Shown here: positions 33,508 through 36,605 of the stretch, piece by piece | How the letters are laid out: every line of letters starts with the position of its first letter | Position numbering within the stretch: the first letter of the stretch is position 1 | NCBI GenBank assembly: GCA_964469405.1 | Contig: CAYXYP010000002.1 | Coordinates: 9,338 to 73,337, forward strand | DNA length: 64,000 bases | Direction of reading: 5' to 3' | Source: an uncultured Candidatus Saccharibacteria bacterium | GTDB taxonomy: Bacteria; Patescibacteriota; Minisyncoccia; Phycocordibacterales; Phycocordibacteraceae | Made by a program: the position numbers and the translations under genes | Notes under the pieces: generated by a model | Database searches by the model: none | What the model was told of the DNA's origin: nothing | Seen by the model: only the letters and a program-made list of their open reading frames with translations

Positions 33508-33602
33508 TCATTCACCTCCTTCCCCTAATAACAGATTGTTCAATGTGCTCTATCCTCCCCCAAGATAACAGATTGTCAGAAATTCGAAACGAGTTCCCTA
33601 AT

Positions 33603-33695
33603 GGTGCGCCGCTTTGGACAGAATTAGAACTTTATACAACACTCGCGATTCCGAACTCCTCAGGACATTAGCTATTATTCGGGATTTGGAAAGGA
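33603..33695. repeat. Repeat R copy 1: conserved block covering the last 7 codons plus 72 nt of 3' UTR of small paralog 1
   Basis: About 97% identical to 34873-34965 and about 85% to 36001-36095. Confidence 0.8.
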
Positions 33696-33923
33696 GGCAT
33701 CATGGTCGTCGCAAGAATCTGCCAAAGGCGGCGTAGGACGGCCGCTATGTTCGCCGGGTAGCGGACTATAGATAATCAGGTAGAGATTGATGAGGCGGCT
33801 TGCCATTTCCCGAGCCTCTTCCTCCTCAATGATCTTGCCGCACTCTTTTGCGTATATGACTCTAAATTCTTCGATTGATTCTTTTGGTGGATACATCTCT
33901 GGAGCATACGCAGGCACTCCCAA
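33675..33923 (-). CDS. Small conserved protein, paralog 1 of 3 (82 aa)
   Basis: IEEFRVIYAKECGKIIEEEEAREMASRLINLYLIIYSPLPGEH...SFPNPE; paralogs at 34945-35166 and 36072-36293. Confidence 0.6.
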   Translation of the reverse strand: MGVPAYAPEMYPPKESIEEFRVIYAKECGKIIEEEEAREMASRLINLYLIIYSPLPGEHSGRPTPPLADSCDDHDASFPNPE

Positions 33924-33934
33924 AAGGGCAGGAA

Positions 33935-34699
33935 TTACTTCTCAGAGTCTCTGTCTATTCGCTGTGTGCGGCTTCGTGTCAGGGTTTCCTTTCTCATCTC
34001 AAATAGGAGCTCCTTCATAACTTCAGGTTTAACCCGTATGTATGGAACTCCGTTGATAACTTCTTCTTCAATGTACGCCGGTAAGGACTGACGCCGATAC
34101 ACCGCAGGATCGTTCATATCCACACGAATAGTTTCTATTGGTTGATGAAAGAGTCTATTAACTACACAACCTGTAATTTCAGTATTGGTCGAGCTACCTT
34201 CCAATCGTAAGACCCACACACGCCTAAATGGGCCTGGGGAAAGGAGACTCTCTTTCAACTGCTCGACCCACGTCGGGCTTTGCGCGTTATTCAAGTAGAT
34301 AAGGAGATCGTAGTTTGTAGTTGAATAATGGTTTTCAAGTTTCCCTTTAATGATCACTCTTGCCTCCTCAATGCTCGTGCACCGCGGCGGCACCTCAACC
34401 AGTTCTATTTGTGCAAAACCAATACCGGGTGGATTTCCATCAAATACCAGGAGGCTGAAGTCAGGAAATTGATCCTTAACGGGCAACAAGAACCAATCTA
34501 AACCCGTGACCTTCTTCATTGCGACCATAAAGTACATAAGAGCAAAGCTCTCCCTATCTTTCTTTACATTCTCATCGGTGCTCGAGAAAAACTTCTTGGA
34601 ACCAATGCGCTTGAGTGTCGTTTCCATCTTTCTCAGCACCGCAATCCAATCTGAAAGAAGCAAAGAGTTGCTAGAAATGAAGCTTGGTTCCTGGGACAT
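33935..34699 (-). CDS. Hypothetical protein (254 aa), variable partner gene upstream of small paralog 1
   Basis: Ends 12 nt before the paralog-1 start; no recognisable domain. Confidence 0.5.
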   Translation of the reverse strand: MSQEPSFISSNSLLLSDWIAVLRKMETTLKRIGSKKFFSSTDENVKKDRESFALMYFMVAMKKVTGLDWFLLPVKDQFPDFSLLVFDGNPPGIGFAQIELVEVPPRCTSIEEARVIIKGKLENHYSTTNYDLLIYLNNAQSPTWVEQLKESLLSPGPFRRVWVLRLEGSSTNTEITGCVVNRLFHQPIETIRVDMNDPAVYRRQSLPAYIEEEVINGVPYIRVKPEVMKELLFEMRKETLTRSRTQRIDRDSEK

Positions 34700-34750
34700 T
34701 CATACATTGAAGCGAATGTCTGTCGCTTTGACTAGGCGGGGAACGACACA

Positions 34751-34872
34751 GAAAGGTTCGAATCCTGGACAGTGTCAACTGAACGAAACAAAAAATACCG
34801 ACAGTCGCGTAAAAAAGCCCTGAATTACAGGGCTTTTTAACGGCGTGATATTTTGCCTGCGAGACAAGAACT
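34751..34872. repeat. Repeat U copy 1: about 124-nt unit with a tRNA T-arm-like GGTTCGAATCC motif (34755-34765) and a bidirectional hairpin terminator (34811-34838)
   Basis: AAAAAAGCCCTGAATTACAGGGCTTTTT; copies at 35877-36000 and 36341-36465. Confidence 0.8.
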
Positions 34873-34965
34873 GGTGCGCCACTTTGGACAGAATTAGAAC
34901 TTTATACAACACTCGCGATTCCGAACTCCTCAGGACATTAGCTATTATTCGGGACTTGGAGAGGA
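34873..34965. repeat. Repeat R copy 2
   Basis: See R copy 1. Confidence 0.8.
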
Positions 34966-35166
34966 AGCTTGGAGCTCTCCAAGATGATCTTCCGAAGGCG
35001 GCATAGGGTGCTTAGGGATCTCGCCGGGTAGCGGACAGTAGATGATGAAGTAGAGCTCTATCAGACGATCGGTCATCTCAATTGCATCCCTCTCCGATAA
35101 GTACTTCCCGAATTCTTCCTGGTACAACTTCCGGAATTCATCAATGCTGGTTTTGTGTGTATGCAT
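34945..35166 (-). CDS. Small conserved protein, paralog 2 of 3 (73 aa)
   Basis: SIDEFRKLYQEEFGKYLSERDAIEMTDRLIELYFIIYCPLPGE...SSPSPE. Confidence 0.6.
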   Translation of the reverse strand: MHTHKTSIDEFRKLYQEEFGKYLSERDAIEMTDRLIELYFIIYCPLPGEIPKHPMPPSEDHLGELQASSPSPE

Positions 35167-35263
35167 GAGTACGGTCTACCCATGTCTCAGAAATCTTCAA
35201 GGGTTGCCACAAACAAAAAGAGCCAGGTTGTGTAACCTGACTCTTTTGATATAACGTTTACAA

Positions 35264-35587
35264 CTACCGAGCACAGAACTTCCCAGCTGGTTGGTTTTCA
35301 TAAATGGAATAGACTCGTCGTTGGCCATAGATGACCTTTTCGCCTGGTTGGAGATCTTTGCAGACACGTGTGCGACGCAGGAGTTTTCCGTTGCCGTCAT
35401 AATCGTGCCTCACCCACCAAGAGCCACCTGAACACCTGATCTGTCCATCAGTTTTCAAGATGAGCATTCGGCGACCCCAAAGCGGATAGAAATCGTAGCT
35501 ATGGGGCTCATTCTCGTTTCCACTACCCATCTCCCATCCCACAAGATGATCGAGACGAGCAAACACTCTTTGGAGCAAGGTTGTCAT
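35264..35587 (-). CDS. Hypothetical protein (107 aa), variable partner gene upstream of small paralog 2
   Basis: Trp/Gly-rich; no recognisable domain. Confidence 0.4.
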   Translation of the reverse strand: MTTLLQRVFARLDHLVGWEMGSGNENEPHSYDFYPLWGRRMLILKTDGQIRCSGGSWWVRHDYDGNGKLLRRTRVCKDLQPGEKVIYGQRRVYSIYENQPAGKFCAR

Positions 35588-35876
35588 GAACCCTCCTATC
35601 TTTCAATTGGGACAGTTTGAACAATCGTTTTCACACTTTCATGACCTGGTCGATGGGTGAGGATTAGAATTGTGCCGCGTTCCTCTCCTTGGAAATATTC
35701 GACAGTCTCTCCTCGCTTCTGTACTCGAGCCACCCTACCTCCGCCCGCTTTCTTTTCCATGCCATTTCCTTTCTGTGATCCATCAAAGAGCTGTTATGAA
35801 TTGTCTTCGCTGCTGTGGGAAAGTAAAGCACCCATGGTCGAGACTGTCACGAGAGGTGTTTCGGCAGGGTGCGAGA

Positions 35877-36000
35877 AAAAGGTTCGAATCCTATACAGAG
35901 TCGACAGGACAGATTTAGAAAGGCCGGCAATGCAACAAAAAAGCCCTTAGTTACAGGGCTTTTTTGTGTAGTGATATTTTGCCTACGAGGCAACGTGCGG
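35877..36000. repeat. Repeat U copy 2 (T-arm-like motif at 35881-35891; hairpin at 35937-35965)
   Basis: See U copy 1. Confidence 0.8.
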
Positions 36001-36095
36001 GTGCACCGCTTTGGACAGAATCAGAACTTTGTATAACGCTCGCGATCCTGAACTGCTCCACACACTCGCCATTATTCGGGATTTGGAAAGGAAGC
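36001..36095. repeat. Repeat R copy 3 (the most diverged copy)
   Basis: See R copy 1. Confidence 0.7.
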
Positions 36096-36293
36096 ATCAT
36101 ACTCGTCGCAAGAATCTGCCAAAGGCGGCGTAGTGACGTCGTTATGTTCACCGGGCAACGGGCGATACAAAATCTGGTAGAGACCGATCAAGCGTGCTAC
36201 CATCTCGATCGCATCTTCTTCAGATAGGTACTTCCCACACTCCTCCTGGTACAGCTTTCGAAATTCATCAATGCTATTTGTGTGTATGGGCAT
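36072..36293 (-). CDS. Small conserved protein, paralog 3 of 3 (73 aa)
   Basis: SIDEFRKLYQEECGKYLSEEDAIEMVARLIGLYQILYRPLPGEH...SFPNPE. Confidence 0.6.
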   Translation of the reverse strand: MPIHTNSIDEFRKLYQEECGKYLSEEDAIEMVARLIGLYQILYRPLPGEHNDVTTPPLADSCDEYDASFPNPE

Positions 36294-36340
36294 ACCTACT
36301 CTCTACCCGTATATCAAAACTCTTCAAGTTTCTGGCTTCA

Positions 36341-36465
36341 GAAAGGTTCGAGTCCTACACAGAGTCAGCAGAACAGATTTAAAAAAGCTCGTGAAGCAGC
36401 AAAAAAGCCCTGAATTACAGGGCTTTTTTACGGTGTGAAATTTTGCCTGCGAGGCAATGTGCGAG
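36341..36465. repeat. Repeat U copy 3, directly abutting the tRNA-Leu(GAG) 3' end (T-arm-like motif at 36345-36355; hairpin at 36401-36429)
   Basis: See U copy 1. Confidence 0.8.
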
Positions 36466-36549
36466 TGCCCAGGAGAGGACTCGAACCTCCAAGCCCTTTC
36501 GGGCGCTACCACCTCAAGGTAGTACGTCTACCAATTTCGCCACCTGGGC
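36466..36549 (-). tRNA. tRNA-Leu (anticodon GAG), type II with long variable arm; no encoded CCA
   Basis: Manual fold: acceptor GCCCAGG/CCTGGGC, anticodon loop TTGAGGT, variable arm CGCCCGAAAGGGCTT, T-arm GGAGG-TTCGAGT-CCTCT. Confidence 0.9.
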
Positions 36550-36572
36550 AACGGAAACACTATAAACGAAAA

Positions 36573-36605
36573 ACCGCCGATCGCAAAGCGATCGGCGGTT
36601 TTTCC
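36573..36605. terminator. Bidirectional hairpin terminator downstream of rplS
   Basis: ACCGCCGATCGC-AAA-GCGATCGGCGGT flanked by an A-run and a T-run. Confidence 0.7.

What the first reader, a model, noticed from the sequence alone, without database searches (positions are those of the whole stretch)
33603..36465. Tandem array of three small-protein modules with conserved R/U blocks next to tRNA-Leu(GAG)
Three paralogous genes (82, 73 and 73 aa) share the core IDEFRKLYQEE.GKYLSE.DAIEM..RLI.LY.I.YxPLPGE...PNPE. Each is followed by the same roughly 93-nt block R, which covers the last 7 codons and a 72-nt 3' UTR. R is followed by a roughly 124-nt unit U with a T-arm-like GGTTCGAATCC motif and a strong bidirectional hairpin terminator AAAAAAGCCCTGAATTACAGGGCTTTTTT. 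A fourth U copy sits directly against the tRNA-Leu 3' end.

The genes upstream of the small ORFs differ between modules: a 254-aa ORF, a 107-aa ORF, or none. The layout is that of a cassette array or serial integration of tiny integrase-less elements at a tRNA-proximal att site, something like an integron/CALIN or a satellite. It could also be a toxin-antitoxin or defence-like pair in which the small partner is conserved and the large partner varies. I did not recognise any of the three protein families.
Basis: seen in the sequence. Interest (0 to 1): 0.85.

Follow-up and report, generated by a model that had tools for sequence, protein, structure and literature searches.

The report
Integrase-less mini-elements stacked at tRNA-Leu
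The three repeated modules are tiny mobile-element remnants at a tRNA gene, and their conserved 'R' block is the tail of a serine integrase gene that splits itself on integration, a habit the papers I read ascribe only to archaeal tyrosine integrases.

Summary
The repeats are real, with one correction: there are three U copies, not four. The "R" block is not a 3' UTR. It is the last 39-41 codons of a large serine recombinase (int) gene on the opposite strand.

Intact ~531-aa int genes in related contigs carry a quasi-palindrome, GTCCTATGCT-GTGCAC-TGCTTTGGAC, about 40 codons before the stop. At that point int is found in two broken states:
- fused to antisense tRNA in three loci, one sharing this window's rplS-tRNA-Leu(GAG) synteny;
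- as an int(C) stub joined to tRNA-downstream DNA in at least 11 sequence-distinct remnants.

So attP lies inside int, and integration at a tRNA 3' end splits the gene.

The small proteins (A) belong to a family of about 1,100 clusters and always lie convergent to int, overlapping its 3' end, from Patescibacteria to Parvibaculum. U is the conserved left end of integrase-less mini-elements. It also follows tRNA-Val(CAC) and tRNA-Leu(TAG) in other genomes, and weakly tRNA-Val(TAC).

The window therefore holds three such mini-elements (0.47, 1.13 and 1.27 kb) with variable orphan cargo. The integron and toxin-antitoxin readings are not supported. Mobilisation in trans and a directionality role for A are inferences.

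The parts
36465..36549 (-). tRNA-Leu(GAG). Its 3' end (..GTCCTCTCCTGGGCAC) is the left half of the attachment site.
   Evidence: ARAGORN and Rfam at 49.6 bits. The same tRNA is an empty site in L061 and is joined to int(N) in L072.
36335..36467 (-). U4, the left-end module of mini-element 'a'. It holds a small hairpin (TTGCCTCGCAGGCAA), a terminator hairpin and an att-like relic with an inverted T-arm (GGACTCGAACC).
   Evidence: nhmmer E = 1.7e-40; z = -3.6.
36072..36293 (-). A3, a small protein (73 aa) of the A family.
36002..36133 (+). R3 = int(C)3, the last ~43 codons of a large serine recombinase gene. It overlaps the 3' end of A3.
   Evidence: tblastn to L056 int residues 512-553 at 79% identity.
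35869..36003 (-). U3, the left end of mini-element 'b'.
35596..35760 (-). 54-aa ORF, cargo of element b. Called as a gene in the public assemblies.
   Evidence: No family hit passed threshold.
35264..35587 (-). 107-aa ORF, cargo of element b, followed by a hairpin terminator at 35216-35247.
   Evidence: No family hit.
34945..35166 (-). A2, a small protein (73 aa).
34875..35006 (+). R2 = int(C)2.
34744..34875 (-). U2, the left end of mini-element 'c'.
33935..34699 (-). 254-aa ORF (called as 230 aa in public assemblies), orphan cargo of element c.
   Evidence: Only one homologue at 32% identity in 5.8 billion proteins. The structure model was unusable (pLDDT 42.6).
33675..33923 (-). A1, a small protein. 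The ORF is 82 aa. The start homologous to A2 and A3 is probably the ATG at 33896.
33603..33736 (+). R1 = int(C)1. It includes the attR junction GTGC at 33603-33607 that abuts native DNA upstream of the desaturase gene.

Best explanation
The region is a tandem array of three integrase-less miniature integrative elements at the 3' end of tRNA-Leu(GAG). Read along the minus strand, they are:
- element a: U4-A3-R3, 0.47 kb;
- element b: U3-54aa-107aa-A2-R2, 1.13 kb;
- element c: U2-254aa-A1-R1, 1.27 kb.

They derive from a family of elements moved by a ~531-aa large serine recombinase (int). The attP of this enzyme lies inside its own gene, about 40 codons before the stop.

Recombination occurs at a GTGC/GCAC core. 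In the tRNA this core overlaps the discriminator and acceptor end. Integration therefore splits int into two pieces:
- int(N) keeps all three catalytic and DNA-binding domains and ends up reading antisense into the tRNA. This junction is attL.
- int(C), together with a convergent, overlapping small gene A, ends up at the far end next to the old tRNA flank. This junction is attR.

'R' is int(C). It carries the attP half-site, which mimics a tRNA T-arm plus acceptor. The 'small proteins' are A. 'U' is the left end shared by the mini-elements. It gives the tRNA a new terminator and carries a relic att-like site.

Shown: the identity of R; the common break point; examples of attP, attB, attL and attR; the int-A association; the presence of U at several different tRNAs.

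Inferred:
- the mini-elements are or were mobilised in trans by an intact integrase (about 0.5);
- A is an accessory or directionality factor or a regulator (about 0.35);
- the array grew by successive insertions or by recombination between elements.
For: 1. R is the C-terminus of int.
- Intact int genes L056:1481-3142 and L065:2525-4249 end in ..LCTALDRIRTLYNARDPEILRTLAIIRDLEKKHQDRDDLSKAA.
- Domains are PF00239, PF07508 and PF13408 at residues 4-335.
- The window's R blocks match residues 512-553 at 72-79% identity.

2. The break point is shared. Eleven sequence-distinct remnants all start at GTGC, with unrelated DNA beyond it.

3. In intact int this point is the quasi-palindrome GTCCTATGCT-GTGCAC-TGCTTTGGAC.

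4. attL is seen at sequence level in three loci.
- The int ORF is fused to antisense tRNA in L072. That locus has tRNA-Leu(GAG) and the same rplS-rluD-uppS synteny as the window.
- The same fusion occurs in L073 with tRNA-Tyr and in L076 with tRNA-Ser.
- Eight of the 120 listed homologues have antisense-tRNA-like tails of this kind (seven with a ..DSN[LPQS].. or ..ESNL.. motif, one with only ..SNP..).

5. The empty attB in L061 is tRNA-Leu(GAG)..GGGCAC|AGATAGAAC plus a terminator. The attR flank in L036 is GCGCAC|AGATAGAAAG plus a terminator.

6. pN/pS in R is lowest in the int frame: 0.22, against 0.20 for intact int genes. The first 17 nt next to the break barely vary, synonymous positions included, in 15 sequences.

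7. U follows tRNA-Leu(GAG) in the window, tRNA-Val(CAC) in L009 and tRNA-Leu(TAG) in L066. It follows tRNA-Val(TAC) weakly in L061. L066 is a cargo-free U-A-R unit of about 0.53 kb sitting between a tRNA and its own terminator.

8. The window's modules are as divergent from each other as from those in other genomes: U 70-78%, A core 57-76%. Relatives with the same synteny carry a different single module (L036/L063), a different cargo (L068), an autonomous element (L072) or nothing (L061).

9. A lies convergent to int, with an overlap, in L057, L062, L065, L069 and L075, and in L070 with an insertion between them. L075 is Parvibaculum lavamentivorans DS-1.
Against: - No single contig shows attL and attR of one element together. 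The elements extend beyond the 10-kb flanks I could fetch.
- Most int homologues in the database are intact, including some on large chromosomal contigs (P0157 on 540 kb; Parvibaculum). So splitting is not the only state seen in chromosomes.
- The start of U does not resemble the int-derived right half of attP. It is unclear how an integrase would recognise an R|U junction.
- Canonical large serine recombinase rules do not allow attP x attL insertion, so direct serial integration next to the tRNA is not explained.
- No intact int, or int(N) fragment, occurs in the 64-kb window.
- Nothing was tested experimentally.
Confidence: 0.8

Rival explanations
1. The three modules are what is left of three full-size integrase-bearing elements that integrated one after another and decayed in place by deletion. 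There is no mobile 'mini-element' and U has no role in mobility.
For: Tandem arrays and decay of islands at tRNA genes are common (PMC7192596). An autonomous element sits at the same tRNA in L072. The start of U is unlike the attP right half.
Against: - Homologous U abuts the tRNA at the same GCAC position at three, possibly four, different tRNA species in different genomes.
- No trace of int(N) remains in any of these loci.
- Independent deletions would not repeatedly produce the same precise left junction and the same U.
Confidence: 0.2
2. The array is a local tandem duplication of one A-R-U segment, followed by divergence and insertion of unrelated genes. No site-specific recombination is involved.
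For: Three copies lie head to tail. U2 and U4 share an identical 31-nt hairpin. GC content is the same as the surroundings.
Against: - The copies are no closer to each other than to copies in other genomes.
- Unit boundaries coincide with the recombinase crossover point found in unrelated loci.
- Syntenic relatives have other contents at the site.
Confidence: 0.05
3. The array is integron-like or CALIN-like, with R/U acting as attC recombination sites folded from single strands.
For: Repeated cassette-like layout with variable ORFs. U contains hairpins.
Against: - R folds worse than shuffled sequence (z = +1.0 to +1.7) and is coding DNA of a serine recombinase.
- The structure in U is a terminator plus a 6-bp hairpin.
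- There was no Rfam hit.
- No Phage_integrase-family gene appears among the called neighbours.
Confidence: 0.01
4. Each module is a two-gene toxin-antitoxin or defence system, with a conserved small partner (A) and a variable large partner.
For: Cargo next to A varies. In other loci it includes a PemK/MazF toxin (L061) and an NYN nuclease (L009).
Against: - A stands alone in module 3 and in L066.
- The MazF and L009 233-aa cargo genes are on the opposite strand.
- A's constant partner is the integrase gene.
- There were no PADLOC, Pfam or PHROG hits for A or for the window's cargo.
Confidence: 0.05

Closest known systems
SSV-type 'suicidal' tyrosine integrases of archaeal viruses and plasmids (SSV1, pTN3, pT26-2)
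   Same: attP lies inside the integrase ORF. Integration into a tRNA gene partitions the gene into int(N) and int(C) at the two ends of the element, and int(C) stubs accumulate at tRNA genes.
   Different: These are tyrosine recombinases, here a large serine recombinase. They are archaeal, here Bacteria (Patescibacteria to Alphaproteobacteria). A review states that self-disrupting recombinases are found exclusively in archaea (PMC8371274). Here only the last ~40 codons are cut off, downstream of all recognised domains, so int(N) may stay active.
Large serine recombinase (phiC31, Bxb1, A118, SPbeta SprA type) integrative elements
   Same: The Resolvase + Recombinase + Zn_ribbon_recom architecture, and short att sites with a small common core and imperfect inverted half-sites. 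A small adjacent gene may play the role of a directionality factor such as SprB or gp44.
   Different: Known attP sites are intergenic. In 2020, use of a tRNA gene by an S-Int was said not to have been reported previously, with a usage rate of 4.9% in predictions (PMC7192596). This family targets tRNA 3' ends, and its attP half-site mimics a tRNA T-arm plus acceptor.
Non-autonomous islands flanked by att sites (CIMEs) and tandem accretion of islands at tRNA genes
   Same: Integrase-less units bounded by att-type junctions, stacked in tandem at a tRNA gene, with variable cargo.
   Different: CIMEs (recalled from memory, not checked here) belong to tyrosine-integrase ICEs with identical core repeats. 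Here the units are 0.5-1.3 kb, keep the integrase's own 3' end plus gene A, and share a dedicated left end (U).
Integration-dependent immunity of mycobacteriophages (attP inside the repressor gene; recalled from memory, Broussard et al. 2013)
   Same: Integration at a tRNA removes the C-terminal tail of a phage-encoded regulator. That tail carries an ssrA-like -AA tag. Here 45 of 111 full-length integrases end in -AA.
   Different: There the gene cut is the repressor and the integrase is a tyrosine recombinase. A degradation role for the tail is only a guess here.
Integron cassettes / CALINs
   Same: A tandem series of short units with variable ORFs.
   Different: No attC structure, no IntI, and a different recombinase class.

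Membership tests
Large serine recombinase integrative element | Integrase with Resolvase, Recombinase and zinc-ribbon domains | tested here: met
   L056 int has PF00239 (4-149), PF07508 (176-264) and PF13408 (277-335). All 120 listed homologues have them too. In the window itself only the last ~40 codons are present.
Large serine recombinase integrative element | Short att sites sharing a small core, with imperfect inverted half-sites | tested here: met
   attP is GTCCTATGCT-GTGCAC-TGCTTTGGAC. attB is GTCCTCTCCCGGGCAC|AGATAGAAC. The shared core is GCAC(AG).
Large serine recombinase integrative element | attL and attR flanking one element | tested here: inconclusive
   attL (L072, L073, L076) and attR (window, L036, L066, L068 and others) were seen only on separate contigs.
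Large serine recombinase integrative element | Catalysis of attP x attB recombination | not testable with these tools
   This needs an in vitro or in vivo assay.
Self-splitting ('suicidal') integrase system, SSV type | attP inside the integrase ORF, with the gene split into int(N) and int(C) on integration | tested here: met
Self-splitting ('suicidal') integrase system, SSV type | Tyrosine recombinase of the SSV family in an archaeal host | tested here: not met
   It is a serine recombinase. The hosts are bacterial (record titles; Parvibaculum).
Integron / CALIN | attC sites that fold as imperfect single-strand hairpins | tested here: not met
   R has z = +0.98 to +1.67. U folds only through its terminator and a 6-bp hairpin.
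Integron / CALIN | An IntI tyrosine integrase and attI nearby (not required for a CALIN) | tested here: not met
   No Phage_integrase hit appears among the called genes of the 20-kb locus L001. The rest of the window was not scanned.
Type II toxin-antitoxin pair | Two adjacent co-transcribed genes, one of them a recognisable toxin or antitoxin fold | tested here: not met
   No Pfam, PADLOC or PHROG hit passing threshold for A or for the 54-, 107- and 254-aa ORFs. A occurs alone in module 3.
Non-autonomous (cis/trans-mobilisable) integrative element | att-type junctions at both ends and no integrase | tested here: met
   The junctions tRNA..GCAC|U and R..GCAC|flank. There is no int(N) in the window.
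Non-autonomous (cis/trans-mobilisable) integrative element | Excision or integration driven by an integrase supplied in trans | not testable with these tools
   The only hint is contig L006, which looks circular but is probably an assembly loop.

The most novel reading that the evidence does not exclude
A widespread family of bacterial large serine integrases (Patescibacteria to Alphaproteobacteria) targets tRNA 3' ends and carries attP inside its own gene, so integration swaps the integrase's C-terminal tail, which often ends in -AA. It is accompanied by parasitic 0.5-1.3 kb mini-elements that keep only int(C), the small gene A and a dedicated left end, and that ride on, or even restore, the split integrase of resident elements.
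Probability: 0.5. Interest if true: 0.8.

Novelty: new variant of a known kind. Interest (0 to 1): 0.68.

Why it matters
- Self-splitting integrases are treated as an archaeal, tyrosine-recombinase peculiarity. Serine integrases have been described as not known for targeting tRNA genes. A bacterial serine-integrase family that does both would change how integrative elements are searched for, because tools expect an intact int at an island's edge.
- It would explain orphan 'small ORF + repeat' arrays at tRNA genes in Patescibacteria.
- It would add large serine recombinases with defined natural tRNA targets and a built-in change of the protein on integration. That is of interest for directionality control and genome engineering.
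- It gives a concrete, testable candidate accessory factor (A, about 1,100 clusters, no annotation).
- A cultured host is available for experiments: Parvibaculum lavamentivorans DS-1.

Tried and rejected
- Rfam on 31-40 kb found only tRNAs.
- Pfam, PADLOC and PHROGs on A and the cargo ORFs found nothing significant. Pfam on the + strand ORFs inside R and Pfam and PDB sequence profiles on a 58-member A alignment also found nothing.
- The structure of A is a confident two-helix hairpin plus a disordered tail (pLDDT 82). Foldseek against the PDB gave no match with E < 1, so the fold is uninformative.
- The model of the 254-aa cargo was unusable (pLDDT 42.6 from 3 sequences), so I ran no fold search on it.
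- Viral contigs held no relatives of A or of int(C).
- My 18-nt R pattern was too short for the 596-Gb genome scan. Of 41 hits, only L027 and L036 were real.
- I considered R as a degenerate pseudo-tRNA and U as a tRNA 3' fragment. R's end does resemble a T-arm plus acceptor, but this is explained as the attP half-site mimicking the target. U's inverted T-arm remains a relic of unclear origin.
- I considered the 40-aa + strand ORF as a free-standing gene paired with A (a type-I-like toxin-antitoxin). I rejected this once the ORF proved to be the C-terminus of int.
- I looked for attL and attR on one contig and did not find them.
- Contig L006, which looks circular, is most simply an assembly loop through the identical U2/U4 hairpin.
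Full report
**1. What is in the window**

Read along the minus strand, the order is as follows:
- rplS (37067-36615), then tRNA-Leu(GAG) (36549-36465);
- U4, A3 (36293-36072), R3;
- U3, a 54-aa ORF, a 107-aa ORF, A2 (35166-34945), R2;
- U2, a 254-aa ORF, A1 (33923-33675), R1;
- unique DNA, then a fatty-acid desaturase gene (33507-32614).

The gene-plus-R repeat is 273 nt in three copies at 71-75% identity. U is about 130 nt in three copies at 69-82%.

At least 14 contigs from separate Hainich groundwater assemblies carry the small protein of the tRNA-proximal module. Several that I compared span the whole array at 99-100% identity, so the array is real. The organism is a Patescibacteria (CPR) bacterium. 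The closest named record, L036, is titled "uncultured Candidatus Saccharibacteria".

**2. R is coding DNA of the other strand**

Each R contains an open 40-codon frame on the + strand (LDRIRTLYN.RD.ELL.TLAIIRDLE....LPKAA*). This frame converges on the small gene and overlaps its 3' end.

Among ten truncated copies from different loci, pN/pS over the 27 codons outside the overlap is 0.22 in this frame. That is the lowest of the six frames and equals the value for intact genes, 0.20. R shows no single-strand structure (z = +1.0 to +1.7) and has no Rfam match.

**3. What that frame is**

A metagenome scan with the 40-aa alignment returned 16 loci. In L056 and L065 the frame is the C-terminus of a 553-574-aa ORF (531 aa from the conserved MKYF start). 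L057 holds the 3' two-thirds of such a gene, cut by the contig end. L062 holds a 5'-truncated copy.

The protein has Resolvase, Recombinase and Zn_ribbon_recom domains at residues 4-335, so it is a large serine recombinase. Its family is large: more than 7,500 hits at E < 1e-20. It reaches Alphaproteobacteria, including Parvibaculum lavamentivorans DS-1.

**4. A common break point: attP inside the gene**

All truncated copies start at the same place, (G)GTGC.C..GCTTTGGACAG, with unrelated DNA beyond. This holds for the window (three copies), L053, L009, L036, L054, L058, L061, L066 and L068.

In intact genes that place is the quasi-palindrome GTCCTATGCT-GTGCAC-TGCTTTGGAC. The complementary product also exists. 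Eight of the 120 listed homologues are normal up to ..L-C/R and then carry tails typical of antisense tRNA, such as ..PGEDSNLHALAG.

I checked three of these at the DNA level:

| Locus | Junction (int | antisense tRNA) | tRNA |
|---|---|---|
| L072 | ..GATCTGTGC|CCAGGAGAGGACTCGAACC | tRNA-Leu(GAG), next to rplS-rluD-uppS, the synteny of this window |
| L073 | junction checked | tRNA-Tyr(GTA) |
| L076 | junction checked | tRNA-Ser(GGA), with host genes beyond |

In tRNA orientation the four site types line up as follows:

| Site | Sequence |
|---|---|
| attP (L056) | ..AGTTCTAATTCTGTCCAAAGCAGTGCAC|AGCATAGGACGATCC |
| attB, empty (L061) | ..GGTTCAAGTCCTCTCCCGGGCAC|AGATAGAACTCAAAGCCGCGAC |
| attL (L072) | ..GGTTCGAGTCCTCTCCTGGGCAC|AGATCAGAACGAGC |
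| attR (L036) | ..AGTTCTAATTCTGTCCAAAGCCGCGCAC|AGATAGAAAGACACCCG |
| attR (window R1) | ..AGTTCTAATTCTGTCCAAAGCGGCGCAC|CATTAGGGAACTCG |

The "|" after GCAC is nominal, because I could not map the crossover more precisely.

The L036 attR flank matches the empty-site flank of L061: AGATAGAA followed by a terminator. The 17 nt of R next to the core barely vary, synonymous positions included, in 15 sequences. They resemble a tRNA T-arm plus acceptor. The resemblance is clearer in Parvibaculum, which has GTTCGAAC....CGCGCAC. This fits a recombinase half-site that mimics the target.

Conclusion (shown by sequence comparison, not by experiment): the integrase's attP lies about 40 codons before its own stop codon. 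Integration at a tRNA 3' end splits the gene. R is the int(C) piece at attR.

**5. The small protein A**

A profile of the four A sequences finds 1,103 clusters of 50-100-aa proteins at E <= 0.001. The conserved part is the first ~49 residues (..EF..iY..EFG..iS..EA.EmA.RL..Ly.ii.RPLP.E). There is no Pfam family and no PDB relative. The model is a two-helix hairpin with a disordered tail (pLDDT 82), and the fold search gave no match.

A lies convergent to int and overlaps its 3' end in L057, L062, L065 and L069, and in L070 with an insertion between them. In Parvibaculum it is an unannotated 75-aa ORF.

A role as a recombination directionality factor or regulator is an inference. It rests only on position, size and the precedent of small factors next to serine integrase genes.

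**6. U and the mini-elements**

U follows the tRNA at ..GCAC| in the window (Leu-GAG), in L009 (Val-CAC, Ca. Adlerbacteria) and in L066 (Leu-TAG). A weaker copy follows tRNA-Val(TAC) in L061, and another occurs in L058.

U consists of four parts:
- a 6-bp hairpin;
- a terminator hairpin whose sequence differs between genomes while the pairing is kept;
- a relic, TTCTAAATCTGTCC-N13-TAGGACTCGAAC, that resembles the outer arms of attP or an int(N)|antisense-tRNA junction;
- just beyond the U repeat, a promoter-like TTGAAG-N16-TAGAGA a few bases before A, seen in U4 and in L066.

L066 is a bare U-A-R unit of about 0.53 kb, sitting between tRNA-Leu(TAG) and that tRNA's own terminator. The unit U...A-R therefore occurs with precise ends at several targets without any int(N).

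The window's units are as far from each other as from those of other genomes. Syntenic relatives carry a different unit (L036/L063 with a 323-aa cargo; L068 with 204- and 181-aa cargo), an autonomous element (L072), or an empty site (L061). A Hainich variant (L053) has another A allele. This supports a fast-turnover hotspot made of non-autonomous elements.

How an integrase would handle the R|U junction, and how the tandem order arose, is unresolved. Canonical serine-integrase rules forbid attP x attL. Possible routes are fusion of circles, homologous recombination through U/A/R, or an attL x attR-type reaction. I rate trans-mobilisation at about 0.5.

**7. Cargo**

The 254-, 107- and 54-aa ORFs are orphans. 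The 254-aa model failed. Cargo in other units includes a PemK/MazF toxin (L061) and an NYN nuclease (L009). The large autonomous relatives carry restriction-modification, TIR, ubiquitin-like, HicAB and nSTAND genes.

**8. Comparison with what is known**

Tandem, decayed islands at tRNA genes are ordinary (PMC7192596). Three things are unusual:
- The recombinase is a large serine integrase using tRNA genes. In 2020 this was called previously unreported, and was predicted for only 4.9% of serine-integrase islands.
- It disrupts its own gene. [quoted passage not shown]
- There are dedicated 0.5-1.3 kb non-autonomous derivatives.

Seven literature searches in the held library found no description of such a serine integrase. 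The library is incomplete, so prior description elsewhere cannot be excluded.

Unlike the SSV case, the cut lies after all recognised domains, so int(N) may remain active. The removed tail ends in -AA in 45 of 111 full-length homologues. That hints at a stability tag, but this is speculation.

**9. Verdict**

| Question | Verdict |
|---|---|
| Observation | Partly confirmed: three U copies, not four, and R is not a UTR |
| Integron and toxin-antitoxin readings | Not supported |
| Core explanation (int(C) stubs, A genes and U left ends of serine-integrase elements with an intragenic attP) | About 0.8 |
| Novelty | New variant of a known kind |
| Interest | 0.68 |

Noticed in passing
Integrase homologues P0153-P0272; window 33731-33736, 35001-35006, 36128-36133: 45 of 111 full-length integrase homologues end in -AA and 62 end in -A, against an Ala frequency of 7%. 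This ssrA-like tail lies in the 40-codon piece removed by integration.
   Followed up: partly
L009:10140-11230; L070:11396-14549: There is a second insertion hotspot inside the int/A 3' overlap. An NYN gene (L009) or an 881-aa AAA_13 gene (L070) sits between A and int(C), with part of the overlap duplicated on both sides.
   Followed up: partly
window 33530-33585 (also L036:3765-3790): TAACAGATTGT occurs twice just upstream of the fatty-acid desaturase gene, and one copy is conserved in the relative. It looks like an operator for a regulator.
   Followed up: no
L006 (1645 nt, coverage 2): This contig starts and ends in R2 and joins the left part of U2 to the right part of U4. It looks like a circle or a tandem duplicate. 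Because U2 and U4 share an identical 31-nt hairpin, it is more likely an assembly-graph loop.
   Followed up: partly
L053:1534-1819 vs window 36011-36293: A Hainich population variant carries a different A allele (84% core identity to A3) and a different int(C) tail behind an identical U3. This is strain-level recombination within the array.
   Followed up: partly
L036:3476-3679; L068:7986-8180: Two int(C) remnants share a homologous 20-codon insertion and stay in frame up to the conserved ..DDLP... end.
   Followed up: no
window 36294-36330 and 35167-35205; L066:8275-8310: A conserved promoter-like motif, TTGAAG/T-N16-TAGA(G/C)(A/C), lies 6-7 nt before the ATG of A. This suggests a nearly leaderless A transcript.
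   Followed up: no
window 36335-36390, 35869-35925, 34744-34800 (right part of U): TTCTAAATCTGTCC-N13-TAGGACTCGAAC resembles the two outer arms of attP with a different centre, or an int(N)-end|antisense-tRNA junction. Its origin and function are unexplained.
   Followed up: partly
L069, L072, L075, L076, L078 (next to int, divergent): A conserved unannotated gene of about 430-490 aa always lies divergent from the intact or split integrase gene. The L069 copy has no Pfam, PADLOC or PHROG hit.
   Followed up: partly
window 36568-36604: A perfect 17-bp inverted repeat (GAAAAACCGCCGATCGC/GCGATCGGCGGTTTTTC) lies between rplS and tRNA-Leu. It is probably the rplS terminator.
   Followed up: no
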